From an uncultured bacterium (GTDB lineage Bacteria; Patescibacteriota; Gracilibacteria; BD1-5; UBA2023), in the NCBI GenBank assembly GCA_903908595.1, contig CAIVSN010000144.1:1167-65166 (forward strand): a stretch of DNA of 64,000 bases. Direction: 5' to 3'. Positions 318 through 59,474 of this stretch are shown one piece after another. The notes beneath the pieces were generated by a model. That model was given only the letters and a program-made list of their open reading frames with translations. It ran no database searches and was not told where the DNA came from. Position 1 is the first letter of the stretch. Each line of letters starts with the position of its first letter. The position numbers were made by a program, and so were the translations under genes.

Positions 318-1685
318 CTAGTCGATCACGGAGAAGACTTCTTCCAGGCTGGTCTTTCCCCGCATCGCCTTGAGCACGCCGTCTTCCCGCATCAGCATGA
401 GGTCGTTCTTCCGGGCTTCGGCCATGATTTCCACCGGGCTCGCGCCGCTTCGGATCATGGCGCGGATGGTATCGCTGACGTACAGGACCTCGTAGATTCC
501 CATCCGGCCCTTGTATCCGGAATACCCGCAGCGATCGCACCCGGTGGAACGGCTGAGCTTGAAGCCCCGTTTGTGTGCCTTGGATACCGCTTCGATACCG
601 ATATCCCGCATCATCCAACGGATAATGTCGTTCTGCGACTCGTCCGCTTGGTAGGTCTCGATGCAATGGGTACACAGCCTTCGGACCAGCCGCTGGGCGA
701 TAATGATGTCGATGGCGCTCGAAAGGATGTACGGCGGAAGCCCCATGTTCAGCAGGCGTTCCAACGTTTCGGAAGCGGACTTGGTATGGAGGGTGGAGAG
801 TACCAAATGCCCCGTCAAAGCCCCCTGTGCCGCGGTATTCGCCGTCTCCAGATCGCGGATTTCCCCGATCATGATGATATCCGGATCCTGCCGCATCAAC
901 GCCTTGAGCCCCGAATGGAAATTATACCCGTTCTTTTCGTTGACCTCGGATTGCACGATGCCCGGCAGCTCGTATTCGATGGGGTCTTCGAGGGTAATGA
1001 TTTTCCGGGTGGGGATGTTGAGATCCTGCATCATGGAATACAGGGTGGTGGTTTTTCCGGATCCGGTCGGGCCCGTGACGAGAATCATGCCGGATTTCTT
1101 GTTGAGGCTCTTGTCGATCTGCCTTTTGGAAGTCCAGATGAATCCGAGTTCTTCGACCTTGGGAATCGACTTGGTCGAATCCAACACCCGGCAGACGACG
1201 TTTTCCCCGGTGCGTACCGGAAGCGTCGAGACCCGAACGTCGATATGCCCGTCCGCTACTTCCGTGATGCGGTATTTCCCGTCCTGAGGGATGTTGGTGA
1301 TGTTCAGCTTGAGTTCGGACTTGTATTTGAGGCGTTCGAGCAGGAGCTTGTATTCCGGCCGGGACAGCCGGAGGACGGTAGCGAGGGATCCGTCGATCCG
1401 CATCCGGATCTCGGCTTCCGTTTCGGTGACGTCGTAGTGGATATCGGAACTTCCGAGCCCGAGCGCCCCCTTGGTAAGGAGAATCAGCGCCGTTTCCGAA
1501 TCCTGCGCGAGAAGCGACTTGTGGAGGTGCCTTTCGAGTTCGGCGAATTTTTCCTCCAACCGGACATGGGTCTCGCTGAGAATCGCGGTTTTTACTATGC
1601 GGAATTCATTATCGTTCTCGATGGGAATGGGAAGCGGTTCGACGGGTTTCGGCAGAACGCGCGGGGGGTGGGAAAAATCGGTCAT
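318..1685 (-). CDS. pilB: Type IV pilus / type II secretion assembly ATPase (GspE/PilB family)
   Basis: Walker A GPTGSGKTTTL, MRQDPDIIMIGEIRDLETA, C-terminal Cys cluster CTHC..CDRCGYSGYKGR. Start chosen at ATG 1683-1685 (MTDFSHPP); the longer ORF to 1967 would overlap the divergent RNHCP gene. Stop TAG. Confidence 0.9.
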   Translation of the reverse strand: MTDFSHPPRVLPKPVEPLPIPIENDNEFRIVKTAILSETHVRLEEKFAELERHLHKSLLAQDSETALILLTKGALGLGSSDIHYDVTETEAEIRMRIDGSLATVLRLSRPEYKLLLERLKYKSELKLNITNIPQDGKYRITEVADGHIDVRVSTLPVRTGENVVCRVLDSTKSIPKVEELGFIWTSKRQIDKSLNKKSGMILVTGPTGSGKTTTLYSMMQDLNIPTRKIITLEDPIEYELPGIVQSEVNEKNGYNFHSGLKALMRQDPDIIMIGEIRDLETANTAAQGALTGHLVLSTLHTKSASETLERLLNMGLPPYILSSAIDIIIAQRLVRRLCTHCIETYQADESQNDIIRWMMRDIGIEAVSKAHKRGFKLSRSTGCDRCGYSGYKGRMGIYEVLYVSDTIRAMIRSGASPVEIMAEARKNDLMLMREDGVLKAMRGKTSLEEVFSVID

Positions 1686-7500: not shown

Positions 7501-10500
7501 GTCACGGCAATTCCTCCCGAAGGAAGACATGCCGTTCCCGAATTCACGGTTCCGATACAGTATTTTACGGTGTCGAAGTTATTCGACGGGCTAACGGCAC
7601 GACCGGCGATAGCAAAGCTCGTTGTCCCGGTTGTAATGGACGAATCATTGAGGGTGAGCCCGACTACCGTTGGTCCTCCTATAATCCCCTGATTCGTTAC
7701 CGCCGCAAGCTCCATGGTGTTTGCGTCCTTGACTTGCCCTCCTCCGTTTGGAATGGAGAGCCGGTCGGTAGCGGTATTGATTCCGCCTGGAATCGTTACC
7801 CGAATCAGCTTGTTCGTTGCGCCAAAAGCAAGGTTTGAAGGATTCACTCCCGCTATCGTGAAATTTGCCAGATTCGTAATCGATGACGCGTGCATAAGTT
7901 CCGTGAACTCGACTTCCGCCACAGTGGAAGAAAGGAGGTACGAAGTAACATACAGGGGCACGACGTTATCCGTTGCAGTTCCATCGAAATTCGTTCCGTT
8001 TGCCGCCGCCGCGAGTCCTTTCGCAACCGTGTTGTCCGCAGCGTCTTTTATTCCGGCGTGATTTGTCTGTGATATGATTGCATCAACGGTTTCTCCGCCG
8101 TTGTACGCGACTCCTTGCGTTACGTAGAGTTTTACCGTCGAACCCGTAAGCTCTCCGGCGTTTGCATAAACGAGGGGCTGAGCATTCGGCGCAGGATTGG
8201 CGAATGACCAGTTCCCCGCCGTAAACGTACCCGCGGAAACGTCTTCGGAATAGGTAACGACGAGCGCATCTACGATACCGTCGCTCGCGGTCTCTCCATT
8301 TTCTCCGGCGTCGGAAGTCTTAACAGTCAAAACTACTGGATCGGCATCGTCCGTCACGGCGGAGACTCCCCCAAAAGTAGCTACCGCGTTATTTGCGGCA
8401 TCTTCGAGGCTATTCGGCGTATTTCCATTCGTGTAGGTCATTCCGATAGTTCCAGAAGAACCGGTTTCTCCGGCATCTAGGGACGTAAGGGGAACGGTCA
8501 TGGCATTCGTAGTGAAGCTAACCGCCCCAACCGAACCGGCTCAAAGCGAACCGTATGCGATACCCCAGTCTCCCGCTTCGTAAGAACTCGCGGAAATATC
8601 CTCAGAAAAGGTATAAACGAATCGGTCAACTTGACCATTCCCATCGGAATCCTGGAATTTTCCGGAAGTGACTACCGGAAGCGCCTTGTCAGCGATGGAT
8701 TGATCTCCGTATCCAGCAGCGCTGTTATGGAGCGTTGCCGCGTCTTTTACGGTACCTCATGTGAAACTTACCTTCAATGCGGCCGTCGTCTGATCCCCAT
8801 CGGCCGTGTCGAGATTCAACGTTATCGTATCGGTAGTAACGCCAACGGAAGATACGTCAATGGAAGTCGACGTTCCGTCCAATTCGACGAGATAACTTCC
8901 CGTGTTCGTGCTTGCGGCACCGGTTCCGGATACGTCCTCCGAGAATTTCAACGCCATGGTGGTAGTTTTCCCCGAAGCGTTTCCCATGGTCTTCGTTGCC
9001 GCATGGGCAGTAAGGAGGCTTGGATCGGCATTGTCGGTAGCGGCAATGGTAAATGTCGCAACGGCATTGTTCGCCGCGTCGTTCAACCCTCTTGAAGCAT
9101 CGACAAAGTTATCCGTATAGGTGATTTGTGGATTGGTTGCTCCGCCGGTAACATCGGCAGCTCCAAGAATATCGATAGCAAGGACACGGGAAGTAGGAAT
9201 GCTTGTCGCCGATTCGTTCGTCAATGCAACGGTTCCGGCAACGGCGGTCGTATAGTCTGCCGCATCGTATCCGTCGTCTTCGATATCTTCCGAGAACGTG
9301 ATGTCTACCCGGTCGACTTGGCCGTCGAAATCGCTATCTATATAGGTAGACGTGAGCGCGAATGGCGCAACTCCGTCCGTTTGGACGGAAGTAGATGCAA
9401 GGGCAACCGCCAGATTGGACGCGCTGTCGGATGCGTGCGTGGTACCGCCGGTAGAATATGCCACCTTCATCTTGCTGGTATCATTGTCCGTATCGACCTG
9501 ACTCAACGAAAGGACCGCTATGGAAGCGTCACCTCCGTCAAGCGCCACTCCCGAAACGTCGACGGCCGTGTCAAGCGAATTCTTCACGGAGAAAGAATTG
9601 GCGCTGGGCGCGATAGAAAGCTCTTCCGAGTATTTCACCTGGACGCTTTTCGTCAATCCGTTTGGAGCGACATTCGGAACGGTCGCGGTCGCGACGTCCG
9701 TCATGAGGGCTACCGGAGACGCCTTGTCGAGGGCATTCACCGCAACATAATCGACGATGGTATTGGCAATGGTTGCCTTGTCCTGGATATCCGGATCCGT
9801 TGGGCTATCCCCCGTATACGATACGGCCGGGGTAGCGCTTGTATCAGGAGTTCCGCTTTCTACGAGGCCCAAACAGATATAATCGCTGTCCGCGGTCCTT
9901 GTGGCTGCGCCGGAACAGTCGGCAGCGGCTGAAAAAGCCGTAGCGAACGCACCGACGGTGAAATCGTTGGCTCGAACGCCGTCATCTTCTATGGCTTCTG
10001 AAAATTTTACGTATAAAGCGTCGATTTGCCCATTGCCGTCGAGGTCTCTCGTCTCCGTATAGAGAATGGAAGGATTCGCCGCATCGGTAATGCCGAGATC
10101 GCTTACTGCGGCACCGGAATTATCCGATGAGCCGGCCTCGTCCTTAATGATGCCTCCGGTATAGGAAACCTGGAGCTGTTTCGTCGTCTGATTAAGGTCT
10201 GCTGCCGAGAGATTCAAAGTAACCGTGCTCGTAGTCCTGTTTACGGAAGTAACGACGATACCGGTAGCGGTTCCCGCTATCTCGACGGTATAATCGCCAA
10301 CCGTATTGCTGGAATTTGCCGAAACGTCTTCGGAATACTTCATGGCAAGAGTGGTGGTCTTTCCCACTCCGTTATCGTTCGTTATAGTAGTCGCGTGAGT
10401 CGAGAGAAGCAAGGGTTTCGCTCCGTCAGTAGACGTTTTGGATGCGAAAGACGCGAGGGGGTTGGAATTGAGATCGTCGACGAGCCCAATCTGCTGTATT

Positions 10501-11990
10501 TTTAGGGTGTAATCCGTCTTGTCGGCCGAAAGGGTTTCCGTACCGTCGGCAACGCCTATATATATGACGCTGTCATTTGCGACGTCTATGGCGTTCCCCG
10601 TACTTGGGGTAAGCGACGAGAAAGATTCGATAAGATTTACTCCGGTAGTATCCGCGATACCCACGGCATAATCCGTAGCGACGACCGTCGAATCCTCCAT
10701 CGCTTCGGAGTAGGTTATCTTTACGTAATCCACGACCCCGTCGTTATTGTTGTCGAGGGTCACGGAAGAGAGATACTGGGGAGCGGCTCCGTCGTTGTTT
10801 CCTGACCCAGCGTTATAAGCGATGGTTTGTGAAGCGGTAGTTGCCATTCCGTTCATGTCGGTAACGGATCCGGAGAGCTGGACCCCCTCCTTATCGGTAC
10901 CGACTAACTGGCCCGGTCCCATGAGCGTAACGTATTCGTCGTCTGCGGCATCGGTATAACCGTGCAATGGCGCCGCTTTCTTCATAAGGGAAACCGGGTA
11001 GGTTCCTCCTGCGTCATCATCAGCGGAGAAATCGTCGTATCCGGTTATGCTGGCGTCGCTGATCGGCTCAGAGAACATAACGTAAATTTCATCGTTGCGA
11101 CCGTCTTGTCCAGCCGTAGGGCCATTATCGGTAGTCGCGTCGTAGTTCGTTACGGAAACCATAACGGGCACGGCAGCGTCTATGGAAGCGTTGGTAGCAT
11201 CCGAAATGACGGCATTTCCCTGAGAATAATTATCCGTCAGGCTTCCGGCAGCATAGGCTACGTTTGGCGTAGCGTTCGTATCCGGTCCGATCTCGTCGAA
11301 ACCGATCACGATGATGTTGTCGTTCTCGTGATCGCCCGAAACGGTTTCCGCGGGAACGAACGTTGGATTCACGTATCCCGTCACGGTAAAATCGCTCGCC
11401 GTAACGCTGGTATCCTTGATATTGGCGCTGAACGCGTCGGCAAATGTGATCTTTACGGCATCGAGCTGGCCGTTGAGGTCCCGGTCGAGGGTATGGACGG
11501 CGGATATGGTCGGCGCGGTGTTGTCAATCCCAAAAGTAATGGCCGGTGTCAATGATCCGGCTCCGCCACCGGTAATTATTACCCGGCTCTTATAGCGGTT
11601 GGTAGCAGATTCGATCCTTGCAGTGGTATCCCAAGTAAGGGTATAGGAATTCGAATTTACACCAGGACTGACTTGGGCAAATTGCTGATACGCGCCATCA
11701 TCGGTGAAATCCGCGTTATTGTTCGCATCGTATAAGTAATACCCGGTAATAACTGCTCAAATATCGCTACACGTATCTCCGGGAGTGACGCTTACGTTGT
11801 AGCTATAGGCATTTCATCTTATCGAAGCGCCCGATGCCGGACCGACGTCAGTAAGGGTACATCCTCCGATAGCATTCGCCACCGGCACCAAATTCACAAT
11901 TCCAAAAAGCGATTGGGTCATAATCATCGTGACCAGCGATATGCCCGCAACGATTCTTTTTGAAGTTGTCTTTATTTTTAATAGAGCCAT
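4593..11990 (-). CDS. Giant (2,465-aa) secreted repeat-rich surface protein with Ig/FN3-like modules and Dx[DN]xDGxxD Ca-binding-like motifs
   Basis: ORFs 8757-11552, 6705-8501, 6501-6698 and 4593-6188 share one frame. They join through 10 TGAs (11814, 11757, 8757, 8541, 6705, 6501, 6318, 6300, 6258, 6204). N-terminal signal MALLKIKTTSKRIVAGISLVTMIMTQSLFGIVNLVPVANA from ATG 11988-11990. Stop TAG. Confidence 0.8.
5598..6152 (-). repeat. Tandem pair of ~273-bp (91-aa) near-identical coding repeats inside the giant gene
   Basis: VTPTVTLSGASIVSAYTATEAASRFS.GLQV...GHTASLTVAYQVNAD occurs twice. The DNA is nearly identical to the pair at ~6768-7325. Boundaries approximate. Confidence 0.8.
6768..7325 (-). 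repeat. Second tandem pair of the same ~273-bp coding repeat
   Basis: Same 91-aa unit twice. Long identical runs, e.g. GGTGACGGTTGAGCC.GTGGCGACGGAAGACCCGTTGACGGTCGCGGTAGCCGCGCCGG, are shared with 5598-6152. Boundaries approximate. Confidence 0.8.
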
Positions 11991-12993: not shown

Positions 12994-13524
12994 CTATTTC
13001 AATAAGAGTACTGCGAACGCCGCGAAAAGCGGGAGGGAATTCTTGAGGGCTTCGATGCCGCGGGCGAACCCCATCTTGGCGGCGGATTCGCCGATGCCGA
13101 CGATCTTCGCGATTTCGGCGAACGGGAGTTCCTCGAAGATTCGGAGCGCGATGATTTCCTGGTTCTTGAGGGGGAGTTTGCGGAGCGAATCCATGACCTG
13201 GTCCAAGCGGATACCCGCATCGATGGTTTCCCCGTGACGCGTTTGGTACGAGAGGGCCTCTTCGAAGTCCTCGATGGAAGCGTGGGCCTCGTCCTTCCGG
13301 TAATGGTCGACAATCGCATTGGAAGCGATCGAATAGAGCCAGGTCGAGACGTTTCCCTTGTCGGCATCGAATTTTCCGAGGTTTTTGAGAGCCTTGAAGA
13401 ATACCTGGGAGACGAGGTCTTCGGAAGTGGCGTGATCTTCCACCCGATGGAACACGTACCGGTAGAGTTTTGGGAAAAACTCCTCGTAGACGTTGGCGAA
13501 TTCTTCCTTGGTGATCAATGGCAT
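12994..13524 (-). CDS. ECF-type RNA polymerase sigma-70 family factor
   Basis: Region 2 (DLVSQVFFKALKNL..STWLYSIASNAIVDHYRK) and region 4 HTH (LPLKNQEIIALRIFEELPFAEIAKIVGIGESAAKMGFARG). Confidence 0.85.
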   Translation of the reverse strand: MPLITKEEFANVYEEFFPKLYRYVFHRVEDHATSEDLVSQVFFKALKNLGKFDADKGNVSTWLYSIASNAIVDHYRKDEAHASIEDFEEALSYQTRHGETIDAGIRLDQVMDSLRKLPLKNQEIIALRIFEELPFAEIAKIVGIGESAAKMGFARGIEALKNSLPLFAAFAVLLLK

Positions 13525-13576: not shown

Positions 13577-15910
13577 CTATTTCTTTTCCTTCTTGGCCCG
13601 TTTGAAGAAGCGGATGGCGAGGTAAGCGAGACCGGCTATCAGGCTCGCGATGCCGAGCAGGATTACGATATTTTGAACGTTCGGCGATTCGGATACCCCT
13701 TCCTTCCGGGTCGACTGGATTTTGTCGGAATTTGAGGATTCGGCGCTATCGGTGAAAGTAGCTGCCATTTTCGGACTCGCGCTCATCGATTCGCTCTTCG
13801 CACCACCGAACATGTTGCCCAGCGTTTCCATTACTCCTGCTGGCGCGGGTGCCCCCTTGAGGGAATCGTTCACGGAGCCCATATTCGAGGAAGATCCTTG
13901 GAAGCCGATTCCCGGCGCGTACAGTTTTCGGCTGGCCGATGCACTTTCGGCGGCCCCATAGACTCCGGCATAATCCTTCCCTTCCACCTCGTATACCGGC
14001 ACTTCGACGGTTTCGGTTTTTCCGCTCGTATTGCGGATCGCGTCGTCGATCGCTACGAAGGAAGTATATTCCGACATGATGGAATACCTGAGCCCGAGCG
14101 CCGTGACTTCCTCTTCGAGTTTTCCGTTCGGGACGAACCGGTTGGACTTGTAGATTTCGGCGATTTTCTGCCGGGCCCAGTAGGCGGCGATGCTGGAATT
14201 GGCGGTTTCCTCATTTTTGAAGGTCATTTTTATGGTCTGGGAATAGTCCTCGTTCCCCCGTTTCGCGGTGATTTTGATATTCCGTTCCTTGTCGAGCGAA
14301 CCGGGCAATCCTCCGGCGGAGTATTTGCCGTAGACATAGAGCGGCTGTCAGGCGTACAAATCGGCGAATTTTTCGGGAAGCACGCCCGTAACGTCGAGCC
14401 CGTCCCAGTCGATCTTGATGTCCGTGAGCACGGGAGCGGCAAAATTGCCATAGAATTCGTCCACTTTTTTACCGACGTCGTCTTCCCCGAGCACGTAGGT
14501 CGCCTTGCCGTTGCCGCTTTCCGCTAGCTTGTCGATGAGGTAACGGTTGGCCGAAGCGTCAACCCCGAACATGAAGAGCCGGTTGGATCCGAGATCGTTC
14601 CTGACGGCGCTCAGGATTTCGGATTCGTTCCCCACGTCGCCGTCGGTCATCCCGAGGATGATCCGCATACGGTCACCGTGATCGCCATGGTCCTTGAGCG
14701 CCTCTTTGAACGGTTGGAGCATCATGGTTCCCCCGCCGGCCACGAGGTTTTCCACGTACTTCAATCCTTCTTTTTTCGTATTTTCGTCGGCATTTCTCGC
14801 GGCAGGAAACAAGGTGAACACCTGGGTGTTAAAATTGTACACGTTGAAGCTGTCGTTCGGTCCGAGGTCCGCTATGGCCTTTTTCATCGCCTTCTTGACG
14901 GTTTCGATCGGGCGGCCCATCATGGATCCTGAAGTGTCGAGCACGAAAACGATTTCCCGGTTCCGGATTTCGGATTTCTTCGGGGATTTCTGGGGTTCCG
15001 CGACGAGGGCGAAGTACCCGTCCTTTTCTCCGGCAACCTTATGCGTGAGGAATCCTATCTGAGGCACGTCGGAAGCCACGTCGTAGGTAAAGGAAAAATC
15101 CTTGTTCGGTATCTTGTCGGTATCCTTGAGCGTGATTTCCGCTTCGGAGTCGCTGATTTTCTTGACGTTCACGTCGTGGGAATTGCTCTTGAGGCCCCTG
15201 ATATTCACGCCCGCCACGATATGGAGCTTCACGTCGATCGAGTGCCCTTCTCGGTATCCCTCGGGAATAGACGGACTCGTAATATTGTTGGCATCGACGA
15301 CGCTCGCGGGATTGTACCGCGGTCCGACGACCATGGGAAACACGAAGTTGTAGACCCCTTTGTCATATTTCACGACTTCGAAATAGGAAATCCTGATCTT
15401 GATGGAATCCCCGGGCAGGATGTTCGCCACCTTCTGGGTAAAAATGTTCGGGCGTTCCTGATTGAGGAGCGCGGCAGTCTGGCCATTGCGCTTCGCTTCC
15501 TGGTATTTTTGCTCGGCAGCCTTCCGCGTGTCGATTTTCCCGACGATCTTGCGGTCGCCGATCTGCATTTCCATGCTGTCGACGCTGGCCTCGTGCGGAA
15601 GCGGGAAATTATAGGTCGCCTCTATCGGGCTCTTGTAGGGATTCTGGAATTCCTGGGTAACGTAGGTCCGGGCCACGAACCCGGAAATCTCGGATTCCAC
15701 GCTCGTGTGTTTGAGCGGAAGCGCGGCGACCTGCCCGGCTTCCTCGTGGGAAAAGGCGTTCGGATCCTCAGCGCCGCCGATAACGGTAATCATTTCCCCT
15801 TGGGTAATCTTGTCGAAGGGGATTTCTTTGGTCGTCGCATCGTCTCCGGCGAATATACCGTTCGGGACTCCCAGGAGCATGAGGAGAACGAAGGAAAGCA
15901 ATTTCTTCAT
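13577..15910 (-). CDS. VIT domain + von Willebrand factor type A domain surface protein with a C-terminal membrane anchor
   Basis: ORFs 14348-15910 and 13577-14308 joined through TGA 14348-14350. Signal peptide MKKLLSFVLLMLLG, VIT-like N-terminus, vWA MIDAS motif VFVLDTSGSM. C-terminal TM IVILLGIASLIAGLAYLAI + RFFKRAKKEKK. Confidence 0.85.
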
Positions 15911-16056
15911 AGGAAGGAAATTAGGGAAATAGGGGGGAAACCATGGGTATTTGTTTGGCTTCTAAAGGGTAATACGGAATTCCGGGAAAAAAGTCACAAA
16001 AAAGTTTCTCGGATTTCTCAAGCACGGATACCCAGATTTCGAATTGGGAAAAAAAT

Positions 16057-16085
16057 TTGCATACGGCTCCCTAGTAGCATATACT
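16057..16085 (+). promoter_or_regulatory. Putative sigma-70-type promoter of the pilin-SPRY gene
   Basis: TTGCAT (16057-16062) - 17 nt - TATACT (16080-16085), 38 nt before the ATG. The same TTGNAT-17-TATACT architecture recurs before other pilin genes. Confidence 0.45.
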
Positions 16086-16122: not shown

Positions 16123-17571
16123 ATGGTAAATAAACAAGGTTTCACATTAGTGGAACTCATAGTGGTCATAACTATACTTTCAATCCTTTGAACCATGGGT
16201 TTCATCTCGCTTAAAGGATATTCCAGTTCGGCTCGCGACAGCAGTCGGCTTACGGCGATATCCGATATCAGAAAGGGATTGGAGCTGAGCAACGTGAGGA
16301 CTGGAACCTACCCCGACCCAACCGGCGGAATCGGAGTGACATTTTCCGGCGGTATCGTTTGGACTCAGGGTTCCGTGGGGGATTCCGTCATGCAGATGGT
16401 GAATTCAGACGCATACAAAGCCGGGAAAAAACCGATCGATCCCCTCCATGCCGGAGTGGAGTTCACGTATTCGGTTTTGAATACGAAAAAGGAGTACCAG
16501 CTGGCGACCGTACTCGAAAACGAAGGCACGGCAGGTATCTCGAAAGCATACGTCGGAGGAAATTTCAACGGACTGATAGCGAAAGCGGTAACGGGAACCA
16601 CTACCTACTACCTGACGCTTCCGAGCATTGTCCTGTCGAACCTTGCCAATTCCGAACTTTCCGTACCTTCTACCCAATCCGGAAATCTCGTGTTGCACGA
16701 TAAGACCAACATTCCCAGTACGTACGTCGGCAGGGTACCAACGGGAAACATCGCAGTCACCTTCGATGCGCTGAGGAATTCCAACCTCGTTACGAGCGGA
16801 ACGGGAATCGTCGCCTATTCGAACTCCGGGCCTTTGGATTCCGCCGGAGCCACGGCGCTAATGACCAATCTCTATGCCATATACAATGCGAGCAACCTGA
16901 AGACAGATAGCACGGGCGCGCCACAAATAACCTGATTCCTCAGCGGGGGGAACGGTACGGCCACCTTGACGAACCTCTATAATACGGCAATCCGGGGAAA
17001 CCTGGGGAACACGAACGTCATAGTGGCGACGTCGAACGGGTGAAACAATATGCCGACGGGAACTACCCTCGATCTGGCGCTATCGCACGGAGTAACATGA
17101 AACCTGACGAATGCGCCACCGAGCATCAATTCGAACTACTGAAACGGCTGATTCGCCAATGTCCCCATGAGCTCAGGGAAGTGGTATTGGGAACTGACCT
17201 GCGGAGCGATAAGCCAGAGCGCGTTCTGAATCGGTATCCAGAATTCCAACAATACGACGATTGATCATTTCAACACGACCGGGAAAGGGTGAGTTTTTTA
17301 CTACTGATACAATGGGAACAAGAGTATCGACGGCGTATGGAGCACCTACGGTTGAGGATATTCGACGTCCAGCATCATCGGAGTCCTATTCGACGCCGAT
17401 GCCAGGACGATTGAGTTTTTCAAAAACGGGGTGAGCCAGTGAGTGCTGCCTATCGGGATTTCATGAACCACGTTTTATCCGATCAACCTGAACGGAAGTT
17501 CCGCGCCAGGAAACAACGTCACGTATAATTTTTGAGCGACGGCTTTCGCGTATCCGGGATCGTTCCATTAG
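16123..17571 (+). CDS. Type IV pilin-like protein (prepilin N-terminal methylation domain) fused to a C-terminal SPRY/B30.2-like domain
   Basis: MVNKQGFTLVELIVVITILSIL[TGA]TMGF. ORF 16195-16935 continues in frame through 12 more TGAs to TAG 17569-17571. The tail reads GKWYWELTCG..FGIGI..YYGYNGNK..IIGVLFDADARTIEFFKNGVSQG..YPINL..NFGATAFAYP. Confidence 0.8.
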
Positions 17572-23516: not shown

Positions 23517-25334
23517 TTATTTGTAGATGGTATAGCCGTAGCAGTAGCCGTCACTGACAGCGGAGGTAGAGTCTCAATATATGTTACTTTGAGTGGTACT
23601 ATTTAAATAACCGTATGTATCACCGCAATATCCATGAGAACAGAGGCTCTGATTTCCATTTGCCATAGTCGTGGTAACTCCGGAAAGCATCGACTGTACT
23701 CATTTACTATATACGTTCAAACCATTCACACGTAAGAATAATGAGCAAGCATAGCTATCCGAAGTTGTCGACCTGTAGATATTATAAATATACCCATTGG
23801 CCGTACCAGTAGACCAAGGGGAATTCTCAGTAATGGTCGTAGTGGGATGGGAAGACCCGTCGCTACTGTTCACATTTGGGCTTACTTGCTTTATCAAGCT
23901 GCAAGCGTACGTTGATTCAGAGGGGGTCTCATAGTGGATGGAATGATTCGGGCTGTATACTCAATATGTTGCGTGTATTCTCCATCTCCAAGAATTCGTG
24001 CCGTTTGCGGGATGTTGATACGAATCGGGATAAAACATCGTAGCGTGATTTTTCGCGGCTTCCACTTCGCACTGCGTTAACGTCATGACTCCAAGATTCT
24101 TGGTATAGGCATTGCGAATACACGACGGACAAGATCCGCCATTGGAAGACCACCCCGAAGTATCCGAAGCCAAGGAATTTCTCAAAGCACAGGCCGACCC
24201 ATCCCAAGCGTATCCCCAGCCAGTATTGCACTTGTACTGGCAGGTATTCGTCGCGGGACTCGCGAAATATCCCGCCGTCACCGCATTGAGCGAGGTTCCG
24301 CCGGACGCGCTCGACAGCGAGTAGCTCGACGTGGTATTGAAATATACTGAACCCGTTGGAAGTCCCGTACAGGCCCCGTCTACCAACGTGTTAGCCGTGC
24401 CGCCCCCTCCGCCCCCTCCCGCGCTTCCCCCCAATTGCGCGCTCACCAAACTCGTCCCGAACGACGCGAACGACCCGCTTGAGGTATTCATGAGCGTCGC
24501 GATGTTCTGGTTGCTTCTGATATCGGATCCGGAATACGCCGCCTGCAATGCCGCCACCATGGCGTTCAGGTCCGCCGCGCTCGCCGGCAATCCGCTCGGG
24601 TTCGAGGCCGTCTTCGCCCCGGAATGCACCACCGCCCCCGGAGGGAACGCGCTCGCCCCACGCAGGGCCTTCCCGTTGAACAGGAGCGAGCCCGAAAGCG
24701 AGCCTATGGGAGCGGAAGCCCCCGCAACGCTCCCGCTGTTCGTGAGGATGCCCGGGACGGCGAGGACGTACACCATGCCCCCCGTGCTCACCTTCGCGGT
24801 AAGCCCCCCGAAGTTCCCCCGGACGTAGGCCATGGAAGGGTTCCCGGCTTCGGCGTGGGCGGTGCCCGCGAGGAAGCCCGCGTCCGCGGCGTTCTGCGCC
24901 AGGTCGCCCTCGTACTCCGCCTTCAGCTGGTACGCTTTCCCTTCGGCGAGGGAAGAGTACCCGTACTCCGTGTTCTTCAGCGGGTCCAAGGGCTTCTCGT
25001 TGAGCCCCCCTCCGGCGATCGTCCCCTTGAAGTACTGCATGACGAGCGGTCAGACCGTCCCCTGGTTCCAGACGGTCCCACCCGAGTGCGTCACGGCGAA
25101 CGAGCCGTCCGGCAACGGATAGGAGCCCGATACGACCACGGAAAGGTCCAAAGACTTGGATGCCTGCGCGAGGTCGCCAATGCGGGCGGAGTCGCGGGCG
25201 CGCGACGAATAGCCCCCTATCGAGAGGAAGCCGATGGTGCCGAGGATGGCGAGGATAGTTATGACGACTATAAGCTCGACGAGGGTGAACCCTTTGAGTT
25301 TCCGGGATGCGGAAGGTGGTTTGGTGAAGAACAT
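23517..25334 (-). CDS. Type IV pilin-like protein with a large Cys-rich C-terminal domain (605 aa)
   Basis: MFFTKPPSASRKLKGFTLVELIVVITILAILGTIGFL. ORFs 25050-25505, 23961-25040 and 23700-23897 are in one frame, joined through TGAs 25050, 23961, 23700 and 23574. Stop TAA 23517-23519. The tail contains >15 Cys (CQYKCNTGWGYAWDGSAC...). Confidence 0.85.
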
Positions 25335-25626: not shown

Positions 25627-26262
25627 CTAATTCTTCTGACAGTACAACAGCGCGATATACGGCTGCATGTTGTCCGGGGCGGTTCCAGCTCATACTATAG
25701 TGGCTATAGCAGCACCTGCCAATGATGTATCAATGGTACCTCAGATAGATCAGGATTTCATCGGGATCGATGGAGTGGCATCTGAATAAACCCTTACGGC
25801 ACCAGCATATGTCCCAAGAGAGGTACCCGTGGGATTAGTTCAAAAATTACCTCAACTTGACCCATTGAGGCTTAAATTGTTTACAGTAGTTATGCTGACT
25901 CAACCAAGCGATACCGTGACGTTCGCATCACTCAGGGATGGTTTGCTTTTGTCTCAACCCATATCCCCCACGCTCGCATTGCTGCCAGCACCATTCCCCC
26001 GTCCGATAACCGTCCTTCCGGCAGCGGCCGAATATTCGGTCCAGCCGCTTGGGCAGCTCGCGAGATTGAAGCTCATGACCGCACCGGTCGGAATTCCGCT
26101 CTGAACGGTGTTCACGAGCTGGTTCCATTTCTGATAGTCGAGCTTGTCGCCGCTCGATGCCGTGAGCCCGGCCCAGGCGTAGACTCCGGTAGCGGTGAGC
26201 GCGATGGTGGCGGCAAGGCTCAGCGCGTATTTGCCGGCCGTCTTCATGGTTTGGTTTTTCAT
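25627..26262 (-). CDS. Secreted phage-tail-collar-like (MdpB-like) protein, paralog A
   Basis: MKNQTMKTAGKYALSLAATIALTATGVYA signal. PTGAVMSFNLASCPSGWTEYSAAAGRTVIGRGNG. Seven TGAs (25954, 25900, 25852, 25840, 25750, 25741, 25690). Ends ...APDNMQPYIALLYCQKN*. Alternative start 26283. Confidence 0.65.
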
Positions 26263-26387
26263 ATGGGTAAATTGGTTTTTCATATGGGTAAAAGTGAAAA
26301 GATAAGTTGAGTCTTTGCGTCCGTACTTATACCAAATTCATTTGATTCACCTGGCCTGCGAGCAAGTGGAGTTAGATTAATATGGTA

Positions 26388-27213: not shown

Positions 27214-28248
27214 TTAGAGCGAACAATCGTCCACCGAGCTTCCATCGGTCGTCCCGTTTCAAAGGACGCAAGCTTCGGAAGCTCCCGGAGACTGCGACCC
27301 GCCTCACGTCGTGACTTTCCCGCTGAGCTGGTTGGAAACGATGGCGGTGCCGAGATTCTGTACCGCGGTCGTTCCGGTCGCGGAGAGGAGGCTTGCCACA
27401 TTGGAATTGGACGCGACGTCGGATCCGGCATAGGCGGACTTGAGCGCGGTTACCATGGCAGTGATCTGTCCGCTGGCGTCGCTTCCGGGAAGACCCGCGG
27501 TACTGGTGAAGACGACCCCGCTATTGGTTCGGGCGTTGGGATTGTAGGTACTGGCGTTCAGAAGGGGCTTACCGTTGAAGAGGAGGGTGCCGGAGAGGGC
27601 GTTGCTTTCGATCTTGAGGGCGTTGCCCGCCCCGGTCCCGCTGTTGGTAACGATGCTCGGGACGGCGAGGACGTAGGTGACGGATCCTGTGACGGTCCTG
27701 GCGGTGAGCCCTCCGTAGTTCCCACGGACATACGCGATCGTGGGGTTGCCGGCGTCGGCGGAGGCGGTCTGGACGAGTGGGTTTCCGGTTTGGTAGTAGG
27801 CGGTCGGATTCGGGAGGTCGTTCTCATATTCGGACTTGATCTGGTAGGCGTTGCCGAAGGCGAGAGTGGAATAGGTATATTCGGTATTCTTGAGCGGATC
27901 GAGGGGCTTTTCGTTGAGCCCACCCCCCGCTATCGTCCCCTTGAAGTATTGCATGACGTTCGTTCATACCGTTCATTGGTTCCAAACCGTTCCGCCGGAA
28001 TAGGTGACGGCGAAAGCGTTGTCCGGGATAGGATAGGCTCCGGCGGTGACGACGGAAAGGTCGAGAGATTTGGCCACTTGGGCGACGTCTCCTACCCTGG
28101 CGGAATCCCGGGCTTTGGAGGAATATCCGCCGATGGCGAGGAAGCCAATGGTTCCGAGGATCGCGAGAATGGTTATGACTACGACAAGCTCCACGAGGGT
28201 GAAGCCTTTGAACTTCCGAGAAACGGAAGATTTTTTGGAGTAGAACAT
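27214..28248 (-). CDS. Type IV pilin-like protein (344 aa, short C-terminus)
   Basis: MFYSKKSSVSRKFKGFTLVELVVVITILAILGTIGFL. WNQ[TGA]TV[TGA]TNVMQYFKG matches WNQGTVGSLVMQYFKG of the paralog near 59 kb. TGAs at 27973, 27964, 27304 and 27259. Stop TAA 27214-27216. Confidence 0.85.
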
Positions 28249-33066: not shown

Positions 33067-33070
33067 AAAT

Positions 33071-33445: not shown

Positions 33446-33446
33446 G

Positions 33447-50646: not shown

Positions 50647-52260
50647 TTATTTTATCCAAATGATACCGGATTGATTATCATATGATCAAGCGCCCGAAAT
50701 ATCAAATCGCATTCAATTCTCAGTACTGTAGGTACTATACCCAAAACGTTGTCAAAAATTACTATAGGCGGTCGGCAAATATTGAGTACCGTCGAAGTAT
50801 CACGATACATCGGTTCCCGCGGCATTCGTTTCCGCATTGTTCAGTGTCGAATACACTGTACATAGGAACGATCCCGCACAACTTCATCCGGAATTCATTC
50901 GGAGATCCGTAGGCCATGTTTTGCCGCTCGTCCTGTGATACCAATCGGAAGCGGATTGGTCGGATCGGACCAATTTCAAGACGGAATTCGTTCTGGAACT
51001 TATGGCATTCAAATCCGCAGTACTCATCCTTCCGCTCGTTCCGAACGTTTTGTTCACTATACTGCTCAAATTGCAACCATTTGAATTGTTGTAACACGCA
51101 GCCCCCATATTCCCGTTCGTGATTTTGAAGGCAAGCGACCACCCTCCGCCATCCGAAGTCATATCGCAGTAAGCCTTGAAACTGCTGGTACCAGTAGGAT
51201 TTATCCAATATACGCCATCGCCGGTATCTCCGGTATACAGTTTCGGGGCGGACGGATTCTTGTATGAGAAGCAACTCGTAGCATACGTCCCGTCCGCCCA
51301 ATTCCTTCATGTAGTGTCGTTTCCGGAAATATATCCGCTTGCCACGGGGACGATCAATGGGGAAACCGTGCTTGTTCCTCCGAGATGCCCGACCAACATG
51401 CTGGTGCCATAGGTCGCGAGGGAACCGCTTGACAGGGAAACGAGCGTCGCGATGTTCCGGTCGGACCTGAGGTCGCTTCAGGAATACGCGTTCTGAAGCA
51501 TCGTCATCATCGAGGAAATCTCCGAGTCCGTACTCGGAAGCTTGGCTCAAGAGAACACCACTTGGGCAGGGTTGAACCCACTCGCGTTTCGAAGCGCCTT
51601 CCCATTGAAAAGGAGGGTACCGGAAAGCGAAGCCACGGGCACGGGAGCCCCATTGGTGGTCCCGCTGTTCGTAACGATGCTCGGGATCGCGAGAACATAG
51701 ACGCTGCTCCCCGTGGTCGTTTTCGCGGTAAGTCCCCCGAAATTCCCACGGATGTAGGCCGTCGCCGGATCTCCCTCTGCGGCGAATGCGGATTCAACGA
51801 GCAAGTTTCCATTCATAGCCGCTTGGTTCATATCCCCTTCACATTCCGCCTTGATCTGGTAGGCCTTCCCTTCCGCGAGAGTGGAATACGTATATTCGGA
51901 ATGCTTCAATGGATCGACGGGTTTTGTTCCCAATCCCCCTCCCGGAATGGTAGCTTTGAAATACTGCATGACGAGCGGTCCGATAGTTCCCTGATTCCAG
52001 ACGGTTCCCCCGGAATATGTCACGGCAAACGAATTATCGGGAAGCGGGTATGATCCGGAAGTGACGATGGCAAGATCCAAAGATTTGGATACCTGTGCAA
52101 TGTCCCCGATCCTCGCCGAATCCCGGGCTTTGGACGAATACCCGCCGATAGCGAGAAACCCGATGGATCCAAGTATCGCAAGAATAGTGATTACTACGAT
52201 AAGTTCTACGAGAGTGAATCATTTGATTTTCCTCCGGAAGGGATATTGCCTTGTACACAT
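50647..52260 (-). CDS. Type IV pilin-like protein fused to a C-terminal fibrinogen-related (FReD-like) domain (537 aa)
   Basis: MCTRQYPFRRKIK[TGA]FTLVELIVVITILAILGSIGFL, with TGA 52219-52221 as the Gly(-1) of the prepilin site. Nine TGAs in total. Tail: ATSCFSYKNPSAPKLYTGDTGDGVYWINPTGTSSFKAYCDMTSDGGGWSLAFKITNG. Stop TAA 50647-50649. Confidence 0.8.
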
Positions 52261-57551: not shown

Positions 57552-59474
57552 CTAATTCTTGAGGCAACGGAGCGAGAACCCGTTCCCACGAGTATTTGAA
57601 TACGCGATATTGCCGCCGCCGGAGGAGAAGTCTGCGATGTAGGAGTTCGGGGAATACGGAGACGACGACCAGTAGTAGCCGCCCGACCCCTGATTGTAGT
57701 AGTACCCATTAATCCAATGCCGGTACCCGGCAAGGGGGAGCTTGAGCGCGCACCGGGTCCGGTCGTACGCGTTCGCCTGGTTGCAGGAGCCGAAAGCGGC
57801 GTTCGAATTGACGATGGCGTAGAGCGTTCCCCATTGGGTGGAGGTATCCGACGTTCCGCCGGTCGGGATATGGTATCCGGACGGGCAAGGTCACTGGGCG
57901 TCGCCGCCGTTGCCGGCGTTCCATCCGCCGGACGGGTTTGTGGCCCCGGCCCATTTCCAGTCGCCATAAAAGGCTTCCCCCTGGTAGAAGTTCGGGGTTC
58001 ACGTGGTATTCGCGGGCGACGTGAGCGTCCCGCCGTACTGGCTGGCCGTCCAAGTCCCGGAAGTGACGATGTCGTTGCGCCCCCACTGGTAGTAGTTGCC
58101 CTGGACGGCCGCAACCCGGTTGATCGGCAGGGCTGACGCGGTCGCGGTCGGGTTCGGCGACTGCGCGGGAACGGCATCGTACCCGGCCGAGGTCGTGGCG
58201 CCCACGTTGCAGGCGGCCCAGATCTGGACGTTGTCGGTGCCCTGTTGCCATACGGCGATATCGTTGGTATCGCAGGACGGATCGGACTTCGTGCCGCTCG
58301 TGCCGATGCCGGCGGCGGTTACCGTGACGTTGGTTCCGCCGTAGGAGAACTGCTGGGATGGCGCGTAGGTAGTGGCGGAAGCGTATGCTGGAGCCATCGG
58401 GGTCGGGGTTCCGCTTCCCCCGCTCGTCGTCGCTTTCCCGCCGAGCTGATTGGACACGATGGCGGTGCCGAAGCTTTGGACGGCGCCGGTGCCGGTGGCG
58501 GAGAGGAGGGACGCTACGTTCGTATTGGAGATTACGTCAGAGCCGGAGTAGGCGGACTTGAGGGCCGTCACCATGGCGGTGATCCGGCCGTCCGCGTCGC
58601 TTGCCGGAAGCCCGCCGGTGCCGGAGAAGACGACTCCGCTGTTCGCGCGGGCGTTGGGATTGTAGGAAGAAGCGTTCTGGAGCGGCTTGCCGTTGAAGAG
58701 GAGGGTGCCGGAGAGGGCGTTCTGCTCGATCCGGAGGAGGTTTCACGCCCCGGTCCCGCTGTTGGTGATAATGCTGGGTATCGCGAGGACGTAGGTGAAG
58801 GAACCGGTGACGGTCTTGGCGGTGAGTCAGCCGTAGTTGCCACGGACATAGGCGATAGTGGGGTTGCCGGCTTCGGCGGAGGCGGTCGGAAGCAAGGGAT
58901 TGCCGGCTTGGTCGGAAGCGGTCGGGACGAGCGGGTTGCCGGCTTGCCCGCCGTCCCGGTACGCCGTGGGATTGGGGACGTCGTTCTCGTAGTCGGCCTT
59001 GATCTGGTAGGCGGTGCCGAAAGCGAGGGAGGAGTAGGCGTATTCGGAGTTTTTGAGGGGGTCGGTGGGCTTGTCGTTGATACCGCCGCCGTTCACGGTA
59101 CCCTTGAAGTACTGCATGACGAGGGATCCGACGGTTCCTTGGTTCCAGACGGTCCCGCCGGAATAGGTGACGGCGAAGGAATTGTCCGGTACCGGGTAGG
59201 TACCGGCGGTGACGACCGAGAGGTCGAGGGACTTGGAGATCTGGGCGACGTCGCCGACGCGGGCGGAATCGCGGGCTTTGGAGGAGTATCCGCCGATGGA
59301 GAGGAAGCCGATGGTGCCGAGGATGGCAAGTATGGTGATGACTACGACGAGCTCAACGAGGGTGAAGCCATGGAAGGATTTTTTCTCGGGTTTCGAACCG
59401 TGGGCAATCCCAGTGGCATGGGAAGCGCGAACGGTTGCGGGGACGGATGCGTTGGCATTCTTTGTGGGTTTCAT
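57552..59474 (-). CDS. Type IV pilin-like protein fused to a C-terminal FISUMP-like (Fibrobacter succinogenes major paralogous) domain (640 aa)
   Basis: ...KKSFHGFTLVELVVVITILAILGTIGFL. ORFs 58827-59681 and 57999-58574 joined with the tail through TGAs 58827, 58743, 57999 and 57891. Tail: NYYQWGRND...[G]PCPSGYHIPT...LKLPLAGYRHWINGYYYNQGSGGYYWSSSP...GFSLRCLKN*. Confidence 0.8.

What the first reader, a model, noticed from the sequence alone, without database searches (positions are those of the whole stretch)
16936..17571. Type IV pilin with a C-terminal SPRY/B30.2-like domain hidden behind 12 TGA codons
The standard-code pilin ORF stops at 16935. In code 25 the frame runs on for 212 codons and reads as a textbook SPRY pattern: GKWYWELTCG...FGIGI...YYGYNGNK...IIGVLFDADARTIEFFKNGVSQG...FYPINL...NFGATAFAYP. 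Several of the TGAs fall on conserved SPRY glycines.

SPRY is a protein/ligand-recognition module that is common in eukaryotes and sporadic in bacteria. A pilin-SPRY fusion would place it on a pilus, plausibly as an adhesin of an episymbiotic CPR cell.
Basis: partly seen in the sequence, partly recalled or inferred. Interest (0 to 1): 0.75.

Follow-up and report, generated by a model that had tools for sequence, protein, structure and literature searches.

The report
Pilus protein with SPRY binding head
A bacterium that reads the TGA stop codon as glycine encodes a pilus-subunit-like protein carrying a SPRY binding domain at its end; this is a real gene that standard annotation misses, but it is one more member of an already known class of "modular pilins".

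Summary
With TGA read as glycine, 16123..17571(+) is one 482-codon gene with 13 in-frame TGAs, 12 of them at or after 16933.

- **N-terminus:** residues 1-27 form a class III (prepilin) signal peptide, MVNKQG|FTLVE.
- **Scaffold:** residues 1 to about 305 are a pilin scaffold shared by a large Gracilibacteria-type family.
- **C-terminus:** residues about 306-482 are a SPRY domain. It scores 35.1 bits in Pfam (cut-off 26.3) and 138 bits against an HMM of 27 homologues.

Glycine is the best of all 20 residues at the TGA positions and tryptophan the worst. Homology to the closest relatives runs straight through the TGA at 16933, so translation does not stop there.

The gene is one of five pilin paralogues in the window that share this scaffold; four carry a large C-terminal head (SPRY, fibrinogen-C-like, FISUMP, Cys-rich), the fifth only a short tail. 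This matches the "modular pilin" class of Raynaud et al. 2021.

A SPRY head is rare in this family: 0 of 77 sampled members, plus one other lineage whose database entry is cut at a TGA. Its nearest relatives are phage tail-module proteins.

A role as a pilus-displayed adhesin is inferred, not shown. One unexplained point is that TGA makes up 38% of glycine codons in the SPRY part, against 6% elsewhere.

The parts
16123..17571 (+). Complete coding sequence under code 25: 482 codons plus a TAG stop, with 13 in-frame TGA (Gly) codons. It encodes the modular pilin-SPRY protein.
   Evidence: Homology to P0001-P0004 runs across the TGA at 16933.
16056..16085 (+). Sigma-70-like promoter match (TTTGCA, 18 nt spacer, TATACT) in the 212-bp divergent intergenic region. 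Weak evidence.
   Evidence: 1 site found against 2.0 expected in shuffles, so it is not significant on its own.
16123..16140 (+). Leader peptide MVNKQG of the class III (prepilin) signal. Cleavage is predicted after Gly6.
   Evidence: PF07963 at 31.7 bits (cut-off 21.2). TIGR02532 at 28.7 bits (cut-off 16.3).
16141..16203 (+). Hydrophobic alpha1-N tract FTLVELIVVITILSILGTMGF, with Glu at +5. It contains the TGA at 16189, read as Gly.
   Evidence: Sequence. The alignment consensus is ILGT.
16123..17037 (+). Pilin scaffold module (residues 1 to about 305), conserved in a large family of Gracilibacteria-type pilin-like proteins.
   Evidence: 1620 representatives at E<=1e-30. The model of residues 25-270 shows a long helix followed by a beta-sheet, at pLDDT 75.
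16933..16935 (+). The TGA where the standard-code ORF ends. It is read through and lies inside the scaffold module, not at the domain junction.
   Evidence: The phmmer alignment to P0001 continues from residue 271 to residue 301.
17038..17568 (+). SPRY module (residues about 306-482), including the N-terminal strands that complete the beta-sandwich. It holds 11 TGA codons.
   Evidence: family profile against the RanBP10 SPRY, E 2.8e-26; 138 bits.
17179..17535 (+). Core matched by Pfam SPRY PF00622 (residues 353-471).
   Evidence: E 1.6e-8, 35.1 bits, profile positions 1-119 of 121.
17569..17571 (+). TAG stop codon.
23517..25334 (-). Paralogue with the same pilin scaffold and a Cys-rich C-terminal head that has no Pfam match.
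   Evidence: (38% identity to the SPRY gene's scaffold).
27214..28248 (-). Paralogue with the same scaffold and only a short C-terminal tail.
50647..52260 (-). Paralogue with the same scaffold and a fibrinogen-C-like head.
   Evidence: (PF00147, E 1.2e-5).
57552..59474 (-). Paralogue with the same scaffold and a FISUMP (Fib_succ_major) head.
   Evidence: PF09603, E 1.9e-5, below the Pfam cut-off. The C-terminal motif is typical of this domain. Also.
318..1685 (-). GspE/PilB-class type IV filament assembly ATPase, the only machinery gene identified among the 45 window proteins scanned.
   Evidence: PF00437, E 1.8e-111. TIGR02538/TIGR02533, about 1e-123 but below the equivalog cut-offs.

Best explanation
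This is a modular type IV pilin-like protein of a bacterium that uses genetic code 25 (Gracilibacteria type).

**What is shown**
- UGA is decoded as glycine, giving one 482-residue protein.
- It starts with a class III signal peptide: leader MVNKQG, then F+1, E+5 and a 21-residue hydrophobic helix.
- A conserved scaffold of about 300 residues follows, then a short linker, then a C-terminal SPRY beta-sandwich of about 175 residues.
- It is one of five paralogues in the window built on this scaffold; four carry a large C-terminal head, the fifth only a short tail.

**What is inferred**
- The prepilin sits in the membrane by its N-terminal helix.
- A prepilin peptidase cuts it after Gly6.
- A PilB-type ATPase machinery, one ATPase of which is encoded at 318-1685, feeds it into a type IV filament.
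- Because it is bulky, it most likely sits at the tip or sparsely along the filament.
- Its SPRY loops bind a protein or glycan on a host or prey cell surface.

The paralogues would then be a repertoire of interchangeable adhesive heads on one carrier.
For: **Code 25**
- PyrG carries TGA at the first Gly of its conserved PGGFG motif.
- Pfam SPRY scores 35.1 bits with G against 26.7 bits with W.
- Against an HMM built without the query, G is the best of 20 residues (138.0 bits) and W the worst (117.4 bits).
- The mean Gly fraction in homologue columns is 0.40 at TGA positions, 0.43 at GGN-encoded Gly positions and 0.13 overall.

**Read-through**
- Homology to P0001-P0004 crosses the TGA at 16933.
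- There is no TAA or TAG in 211 codons (24 of 20000 shuffles).

**Pilin**
- PF07963 and TIGR02532 both score above their cut-offs.
- The model shows a helix plus a beta-sheet, and the top Foldseek hit is a Thermus type IV pilin, though not significant.

**SPRY**
- See (E 2.8e-26 to RanBP10 over the whole domain).
- A 44%-identical relative is modelled at pLDDT 91.5 and matches ASH2L and RanBP9/10 SPRY at TM 0.85-0.88.

**Modularity**
- The closest scaffold relatives (48-54% identity) carry FISUMP or DUF1566 heads instead.
- There are five paralogues in the window.
- In 77 family representatives the heads include LamG, LRR, fibrinogen-C, TSP1 and RCC1.

**Binding role**
- The nearest SPRY relative, P0071, lies in a phage tail module next to Prophage_tail, CBM96, XhlA and an amidase.
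- PHROG matches include virion structural and tail-fibre-associated proteins.

**Precedent**
- Modular pilins PilB and PilC of S. sanguinis are tip-located adhesins (PMC8179133, PMC9934059).
- Gracilibacteria express type IV pili (PMC11452946).
Against: - There is no direct evidence of expression, processing, polymerisation or binding.
- No prepilin peptidase, platform protein or obvious small major pilin was identified among the 45 window proteins I scanned; about 10 small predicted ORFs were not scanned. The ATPase lies 14 kb away among unrelated genes.
- The scaffold model found no significant structural match to solved pilins (best E 0.68). The scaffold is about twice the size of ordinary pilins.
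- The structure of the window's own SPRY domain could not be predicted, because the tools refuse code-25 translations.
- SPRY domains usually bind proteins or peptides, but the ligand here is unknown.
- The sixfold excess of TGA in the SPRY half is unexplained.
Confidence: 0.6

Rival explanations
1. The protein is a pilin-like surface protein that is not part of a filament. The class III signal peptide would serve only for export and membrane anchoring after prepilin-peptidase cleavage. The SPRY head would be displayed on the cell surface on a 300-residue stalk, as archaeal class III signal binding proteins are, or as a short pseudopilus.
For: - The scaffold is unusually large for a pilin and has no significant match to solved pilin structures.
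- The family is very large, with several paralogues per genome: five in 64 kb and 1620 representatives.
- No adjacent pilus machinery genes were found.
- NCBIfam also gives weak N-terminal matches to the GspG pseudopilin.
Against: - The alpha1-N helix with Glu+5 is the polymerisation interface in all type IV filaments, and it is strictly conserved in this family.
- Characterised modular pilins with bulky heads are incorporated into pili (PMC8179133, PMC9934059).
- A PilB-class ATPase is present in the window.
Confidence: 0.25
2. The protein is the major structural subunit of a thick pilus, with every subunit carrying a SPRY head, rather than a low-abundance tip adhesin.
For: No small conventional major pilin was seen among the window proteins scanned. 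The linker between scaffold and SPRY is short.
Against: - Five paralogues with different heads share the scaffold, which argues for alternative accessory subunits.
- The paralogue at 27214-28248, which has only a short tail, is a better backbone candidate.
- Bulky modular pilins are modelled at tips (PMC8179133).
Confidence: 0.07
3. The part after 16933 is not translated or is a decaying remnant. TGA would terminate translation, or be Trp under code 4, and the SPRY-like reading would be a relic.
For: - TGA density is abnormally high in this part: 12 of 36 Gly codons against 5.9% window-wide.
- The public gene call stops at 16935.
Against: - There are no TAA or TAG codons in 211 codons (p about 0.001).
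- TGAs fall on Gly columns at the same rate as GGN codons, and never on Trp columns.
- Gly is the best and Trp the worst substitution.
- The conserved scaffold continues 30 residues past the TGA.
- In-frame TGAs occur in housekeeping genes such as PyrG at a conserved Gly.
Confidence: 0.03

Closest known systems
Streptococcus sanguinis PilC, a modular minor pilin with a concanavalin-A-like lectin module (Shahin et al. 2023, PMC9934059)
   Same: Both have a class III signal peptide, a pilin module and a C-terminal beta-sandwich binding module joined by a short linker. From my own knowledge, SPRY belongs to the same concanavalin-like clan as LamG lectin modules. PilC is proposed to act as a tip-located adhesin.
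   Different: - The module family differs: SPRY here, a LamG-type lectin in PilC.
- The carrier scaffold here is about 300 residues and unrelated in sequence beyond alpha1.
- No PilA-like partner is known here.
- The organism is a TGA-recoded candidate-phyla bacterium.
- Nothing has been tested experimentally.
Streptococcus sanguinis PilB and the 'modular pilin' class (Raynaud et al. 2021, PMC8179133)
   Same: [quoted passage not shown] That paper reports more than 1,200 such proteins in 264 architectures. Many are from candidate-phyla bacteria, including one Gracilibacteria example.
   Different: The head here is SPRY, not vWA. SPRY is not named in that paper's text or in its held supplements.
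Gracilibacteria-type pilin-scaffold family with other heads (P0001, P0007, P0010, P0018, P0047 and others, and the four paralogues in this window)
   Same: They share the same roughly 300-residue scaffold at 35-62% identity, the same N-terminal signal, and the same junction after about residue 300.
   Different: Their heads are FISUMP, DUF1566/Lcl_C, LRR, LamG, RCC1, fibrinogen-C, TSP1 or beta-propellers. SPRY occurred in 0 of 77 sampled members.
Pilin + FN3-like + 2xSPRY protein on contig SRR22315509_1123546 (L001; database entries P0026 and P0034)
   Same: It combines a prepilin signal, a related scaffold and SPRY. It is also cut by an in-frame TGA in the public gene call.
   Different: - It has only one TGA, an extra FN3-like spacer and two SPRY copies.
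- Its SPRY domains are only 28-34% identical to this one, less than this one's 44% to phage-type SPRYs. The two fusions therefore look independent.
Phage tail-module SPRY proteins (P0071 in L165; P0074 with DUF7483/phrog_24898 'tail fiber'; phrog_10080; phrog_19943)
   Same: These are the closest SPRY sequences, at 40-44% identity over the whole domain with the same GKWYWE, FYKNGVSQG and NFGA motifs.
   Different: They have no pilin signal and no in-frame TGAs, and they sit in phage virion or tail gene clusters.
Eukaryotic SPRY domains (RanBP9/10, ASH2L, DDX1, HERC1, TRIM9/67)
   Same: Homologous domain and fold.
   Different: They are intracellular protein-interaction modules at 20-31% identity. 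No PRY motif was detected in the window protein, so it is not a B30.2 domain.

Membership tests
Type IV pilin / type IV filament subunit | Class III signal peptide: a short hydrophilic leader ending in Gly or Ala | tested here: met
   The leader is MVNKQG. PF07963 scores 31.7 bits against a cut-off of 21.2. TIGR02532 scores 28.7 bits against 16.3.
Type IV pilin / type IV filament subunit | Phe (or another hydrophobic residue) at +1, Glu at +5, and a hydrophobic alpha1-N tract of about 21 residues | tested here: met
   FTLVELIVVITILSILGTMGF is read directly from the sequence. This tract is nearly invariant across the family.
Type IV pilin / type IV filament subunit | Lollipop fold: a long alpha1 helix packed on an antiparallel beta-sheet head | tested here: inconclusive
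   The AlphaFold model of residues 25-270 (pLDDT 75) has a 24-residue helix followed by 7 strands. The Foldseek top hit is Thermus pilin 4bhr, but only at E 0.68 and TM 0.22/0.50.
Type IV pilin / type IV filament subunit | Cleaved by a prepilin peptidase and polymerised by an ATPase/platform machinery | not testable with these tools
   A GspE/PilB-class ATPase lies at 318-1685. No peptidase or platform gene was found among the 45 window proteins scanned. The rest of the genome is not available.
Modular pilin (sensu Raynaud et al. 2021) | An N-terminal prepilin motif plus an additional recognised domain not specific to pilus biology | tested here: met
   PF07963 at residues 1-25 and PF00622 at residues 353-471 lie in one ORF. 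The definition comes from PMC8179133.
SPRY domain (PF00622) | Score above the Pfam gathering threshold over the full model | tested here: met
   35.1 bits against 26.3, profile positions 1-119 of 121, with TGA read as Gly.
SPRY domain (PF00622) | Homology to experimentally solved SPRY domains over the whole domain | tested here: met
   As a single sequence it matches HERC1 SPRY at E 1.2e-4. The family profile that includes it matches RanBP10 at E 2.8e-26, positions 8-170 of 174.
SPRY domain (PF00622) | Bent beta-sandwich SPRY fold | not testable with these tools
   The structure tool refuses the code-25 translation. A 44%-identical relative, P0071 residues 1-171, is modelled at pLDDT 91.5 and matches ASH2L and RanBP9/10 SPRY at TM 0.85-0.88, E about 1e-14.
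B30.2 / PRY-SPRY | A PRY motif (PF13765) immediately upstream of SPRY | tested here: not met
   The Pfam scan at E<=1 returned only SPRY, N_methyl and a sub-threshold HVO_0513_N hit. The upstream strands align with the prokaryotic/phage SPRY family instead.
Genetic code 25 (UGA = Gly) | In-frame TGA at positions where homologues have conserved Gly, not Trp | tested here: met
   The first Gly of PyrG's PGGFG motif is a TGA. SPRY columns at TGA positions are 74-100% Gly at 4 sites, with Trp at 0%. Gly is the best and Trp the worst of 20 substitutions.
Genetic code 25 (UGA = Gly) | Presence of tRNA-Gly(UCA) and loss of release factor 2 | not testable with these tools
   There are no tRNA genes and no Rfam hits in the window. 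The rest of the genome is not available.

The most novel reading that the evidence does not exclude
The SPRY head may have been captured from a phage tail or receptor-binding protein and grafted onto the pilin carrier. If so, an ultrasmall symbiont would recognise its host with a phage-derived module. The abrupt jump in TGA usage inside one ORF (2 of 36 Gly codons in the scaffold, 11 of 29 in the head) would then be the scar of a recent cassette swap from a TGA-rich recoded donor, either a cell or a phage, that ordinary gene callers cannot see. The whole scaffold family would be a head-swapping system analogous to tail-fibre exchange in phages.
Probability: 0.2. Interest if true: 0.6.

Novelty: new member of a known kind. 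Interest (0 to 1): 0.32.

Why it matters
**Practical point.** In TGA-recoded lineages, surface proteins like this one are invisible to standard annotation. The public call for this gene is a 246-residue fragment with no domain hit. The only other pilin-SPRY found is also cut at a TGA. Surveys of adhesins and host-interaction genes in Gracilibacteria will therefore undercount them unless code 25 is used.

**Biological point.** The gene adds SPRY to the list of heads carried by modular pilins. I did not find that combination in the searchable literature. It also shows a single genome region holding five pilins on one scaffold, four of them with different heads. That makes a ready set of candidates for finding what these uncultured symbionts attach to.

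It does not change how pili or SPRY domains are thought to work.

Tried and rejected
1. **Structure of the window's own protein.** The tools refuse any code-25 translation, and refuse DNA references with in-frame stops. I modelled the TGA-free scaffold fragment and a 44%-identical SPRY relative instead.
2. **Fold search of the scaffold model against the PDB.** No significant match; the best hit, a Thermus pilin, has E 0.68. The pilin fold of the head is therefore not confirmed structurally.
3. **Code 4 (TGA = Trp).** Rejected.
4. **Greedy longest-ORF gene calling.** It produced many antisense artefacts at 54% GC. I replaced it with a self-trained codon-usage caller; those gene boundaries are approximate.
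5. **Scan of species-representative genomes for close relatives.** It found only two Bacillota SPRY proteins and no source genome, so taxonomy rests on the labels of homologues and on the code.
6. **Search for more pilin-SPRY fusions.** I checked 160 metagenome and viral loci holding the closest SPRY relatives and found none beyond L001.
7. **tRNA and Rfam scans of the window.** Nothing found.
8. **Modular-pilin paper supplements.** SPRY and its InterPro accessions are not present in the held text.
9. **Phage tail-collar idea.** I suspected a tail-collar motif in two neighbouring small proteins, but Pfam gave no support.
10. **Terminator.** No convincing terminator was found directly after the gene.
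Full report
**Observation**

In the standard code there is a 246-codon ORF, 16195..16935, that ends at a TGA. With only TAA and TAG as stops, the frame is open from 16111 to the TAG at 17569-17571. The first ATG is at 16123, giving a 482-residue product.

The gene has 13 in-frame TGAs: one at 16189, one at 16933 and eleven from 17041 to 17533.

It cuts the prepilin signal off the standard-code ORF. The public gene call for this locus is therefore a 246-residue protein with no domain hit at all.

The open frame is unlikely by chance. Only 24 of 20000 shuffles of the 211 codons lack TAA/TAG, and every other frame of the stretch has 2-6 such stops.

**Genetic code**

TGA is a sense codon throughout the window. 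A self-trained gene model gives 93 TGAs among 1584 glycine-type codons outside this gene. CTP synthase (40924-42522) has its single TGA at the first glycine of the conserved PGGFG motif (the motif is from my own knowledge of PyrG).

Within the finding itself:
- Pfam SPRY scores 35.1 bits with TGA as Gly. With Trp it scores only 26.7 bits, with a truncated match.
- I built an HMM from 27 homologous SPRY domains that excludes the window sequence. Glycine is the best of the 20 possible residues at the TGA positions (138.0 bits, E 3e-43). Tryptophan is the worst (117.4 bits), and deleting the codons is worse still.
- In an alignment with 42 homologous domains, the columns under the TGAs average 40% Gly. 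Columns under GGN-encoded glycines average 43%, and all columns average 13%. No Trp occurs under any TGA.
- Four TGAs fall on columns that are 74-100% Gly. These include the invariant G of KNGVSQG (17440) and the G of NFG (17533).

No tRNA gene is present in the window, so the decoding tRNA could not be checked.

**Read-through at 16933**

The closest relatives of the N-terminal part (P0001-P0004, 48-54% identical) align from residue 5 to about residue 300. The alignment runs 30 residues beyond the TGA at residue 271 without a break. That TGA is therefore inside a conserved module, not at a domain boundary, and translation must continue through it.

**N-terminal part**

Residues 1-27 read MVNKQG|FTLVELIVVITILSILGTMGF. 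This is a short basic leader ending in Gly, followed by Phe+1, Glu+5 and a 21-residue hydrophobic tract, which is the class III signal peptide of type IV pilins. Both curated models pass their cut-offs: PF07963 at 31.7 against 21.2 bits, and TIGR02532 at 28.7 against 16.3 bits.

An AlphaFold model of the TGA-free fragment (residues 25-270, 20-sequence alignment, pLDDT 75) shows a 24-residue helix followed by seven strands. After that comes a less confident region containing another helix. Its best structural match in the PDB is a Thermus type IV pilin, but at E 0.68. The pilin fold of the head is therefore plausible, not demonstrated.

The whole 300-residue scaffold defines a large family. A profile search of 1.84 billion representatives finds 1620 proteins at E<=1e-30. 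In each of the best 150 the scaffold matches at the N-terminus, and total lengths run from 202 to 1409 residues.

**C-terminal part**

Residues about 306-482 are a SPRY domain.
- The Pfam match is above threshold and covers the full model.
- The single sequence finds HERC1, RanBP9/10 and DDX1 SPRY structures at E 1e-4 to 1e-3.
- The family profile finds the RanBP10 SPRY at E 2.8e-26 over positions 8-170 of 174.

A 44%-identical relative (P0071 residues 1-171) is modelled at pLDDT 91.5. It superposes on ASH2L and RanBP9/10 SPRY domains at TM 0.85-0.88.

No PRY motif was detected, so 'B30.2' in the strict sense is not supported.

**Relatives of the SPRY head**

This SPRY subfamily (motifs GKWYWE, FYKNGVSQG, NFGAxAF) is not rare in prokaryotic data.
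- A pattern-limited scan confirmed at least 417 relatives on viral contigs and at least 326 on metagenome contigs.
- It matches phage families phrog_10080 and phrog_19943, the latter annotated 'virion structural protein'.
- The closest relative, P0071, sits in a phage tail module between Prophage_tail and YomF-like genes and a CBM96 protein. XhlA and an amidase follow.
- P0074 joins SPRY to DUF7483, which matches a PHROG annotated as tail fibre.

The head therefore belongs to a group that is typically found in receptor-recognition regions of phages.

**Modularity**

The closest scaffold relatives carry other heads: FISUMP in P0001-P0003 and a DUF1566-like head in P0004.

The window itself holds five paralogues on this scaffold:

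| Paralogue | Head |
|---|---|
| 16123-17571 | SPRY |
| 23517-25334 | Cys-rich, no Pfam match |
| 27214-28248 | almost none |
| 50647-52260 | fibrinogen-C-like |
| 57552-59474 | FISUMP |

In 77 family representatives the heads include LamG_3, LRR, Flg_new, fibrinogen-C, DUF285, Lcl_C, RCC1, TSP1 and beta-propellers. None of the 77 has SPRY.

The only other pilin-SPRY found is P0026/P0034. The DNA of P0026's contig shows that the database protein is cut at an in-frame TGA. The true product is pilin + FN3-like + two SPRY domains. Its SPRY domains are only 28-34% identical to the window's. The window's domain is 44% identical to phage-type domains, so the two fusions look independent. Among 140 intact SPRY domains in 160 further loci, none lies behind a pilin signal.

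**Context**

The region is chromosomal and mostly housekeeping: YidC, RnpA, RNase III, NusB, RNase J, PyrG, Suf and GatA.

Near the gene are:
- a divergently transcribed VIT-VWA membrane protein (13577-15910);
- an ECF-type sigma factor (12994-13524);
- a 2444-residue repeat-rich surface protein (4593-11927);
- an SLH-domain protein (3469-4506);
- a GspE/PilB-class ATPase (318-1685).

No prepilin peptidase or platform protein was identified among the 45 window proteins scanned; about 10 small predicted ORFs were not scanned. Homologues labelled by NCBI are almost all 'Candidatus Gracilibacteria'. Together with code 25, this places the organism in or near that group. The species-representative genome scan did not find the source genome.

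**Mechanism**

Shown:
- one ORF under code 25;
- a prepilin signal;
- a conserved scaffold;
- a SPRY head;
- paralogues with other heads;
- a filament ATPase in the window.

Inferred from established type IV filament biology and from S. sanguinis PilB and PilC (PMC8179133, PMC9934059):
- cleavage after Gly6;
- extraction from the membrane and incorporation into a pilus;
- a location most likely at the tip or sparsely along the filament, because of bulk;
- ligand binding by the SPRY loops to a host or prey surface.

Gracilibacteria are reported to express type IV pili and are thought to attach to hosts (PMC11452946).

The main rival is that the signal serves only for export and anchoring, so that the protein is a cell-surface stalked adhesin rather than a filament subunit. 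The evidence here cannot separate the two.

**Unexplained**

TGA accounts for 5.9% of glycine codons in the window and 5.5% in the five scaffolds pooled. In the SPRY head it accounts for 11 of 29 (12 of 36 from 16933 onward, binomial p 5.5e-7).

GC and GC3 are the same in both halves. Expression cannot differ within one mRNA. The known SPRY relatives have essentially no in-frame TGAs.

Possible causes are a graft from a TGA-rich recoded donor that gene callers miss, in-situ GGA-to-TGA drift in a fast-evolving head, or homogenisation of scaffolds among paralogues. None of these was tested.

**Comparison and novelty**

The design is the 'modular pilin' of Raynaud et al. 2021: more than 1,200 proteins in 264 architectures. 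Many are from candidate-phyla bacteria, including a Gracilibacteria example.

SPRY is not named in that paper's text or held supplements. No paper in the searchable library combines SPRY with pilins or with these phyla.

The finding is therefore a new member of a known kind. It carries a rare head type, and public annotation hides it because of the recoded stop codon.

**Verdict**

The function is inferred. Interest is modest.

Noticed in passing
window 16123-17037 versus 17038-17568: TGA usage jumps inside one ORF. It is 2 of 36 Gly codons in the pilin scaffold and 11 of 29 in the SPRY head, against 5.9% window-wide. GC and GC3 are the same in both halves. The fibrinogen-like head of the paralogue at 50647-52260 is also elevated (6 of 27).
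   Followed up: partly
window 32482-34339 (-): Four tandem small genes match the type IV secretion pilin families (VirB2/TrbC-like: PF18895, three of the four at or above its cut-off, and for two of them PF04956 below its cut-off). Two of them use TGA for 20-22% of their Gly codons.
   Followed up: no
window 25627-26283 (-) and 26583-27167 (-): Two tandem paralogous small secreted proteins lie between pilin paralogues. Both end in APDNMQPYIALLYCQKN, and TGA makes up 19-23% of their Gly codons. The ending reminded me of phage tail-collar proteins, but Pfam gave no hit.
   Followed up: partly
window 4593-11927 (-): A giant surface protein of about 2444 residues contains several near-identical repeats of about 100 residues (TPTVTLSGASIVSAYTATEAASRFSAGLQV...) and 10 in-frame TGAs. 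An SLH-domain protein follows at 3469-4506.
   Followed up: no
window 13577-15910 (-): A VIT-VWA protein with a C-terminal membrane anchor is transcribed divergently from the pilin-SPRY gene, with an ECF-type sigma factor just beyond it at 12994-13524. This may be a co-regulated surface-protein neighbourhood.
   Followed up: no
L001 193-2331: Database protein P0026 (515 aa) ends at an in-frame TGA. Read with code 25, the gene continues into the rest of its first SPRY domain and a second one, absorbing the separately called 182-aa 'SPRY' gene at 1783-2331.
   Followed up: yes
L164 167-907 (ENA ERZ18659389, scaffold_62310): The public gene call for this very gene is the 246-residue standard-code fragment with no Pfam annotation. 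The pilin signal and the SPRY domain are both lost.
   Followed up: yes
L026 (JACCDQ010912469.1), frame 0 around codon 1002: A non-pilin SPRY domain has one in-frame TGA at a position where homologues usually have Gly (YTN-TGA-SGTAYGA). It may come from another recoded organism or its phage.
   Followed up: no
P0002, P0003, P0004 and many rows: Many database homologues carry Trp where the family has conserved Gly, for example ILWTIAF for ILGTIAF. They were evidently translated with code 4 instead of code 25, which degrades alignments and domain detection for this family.
   Followed up: partly
L165 1-13808: The closest SPRY relative, P0071, lies in a phage tail-to-lysis module: Prophage_tail, YomF_N, the SPRY protein, CBM96, XhlA and Amidase_2.
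   Followed up: partly
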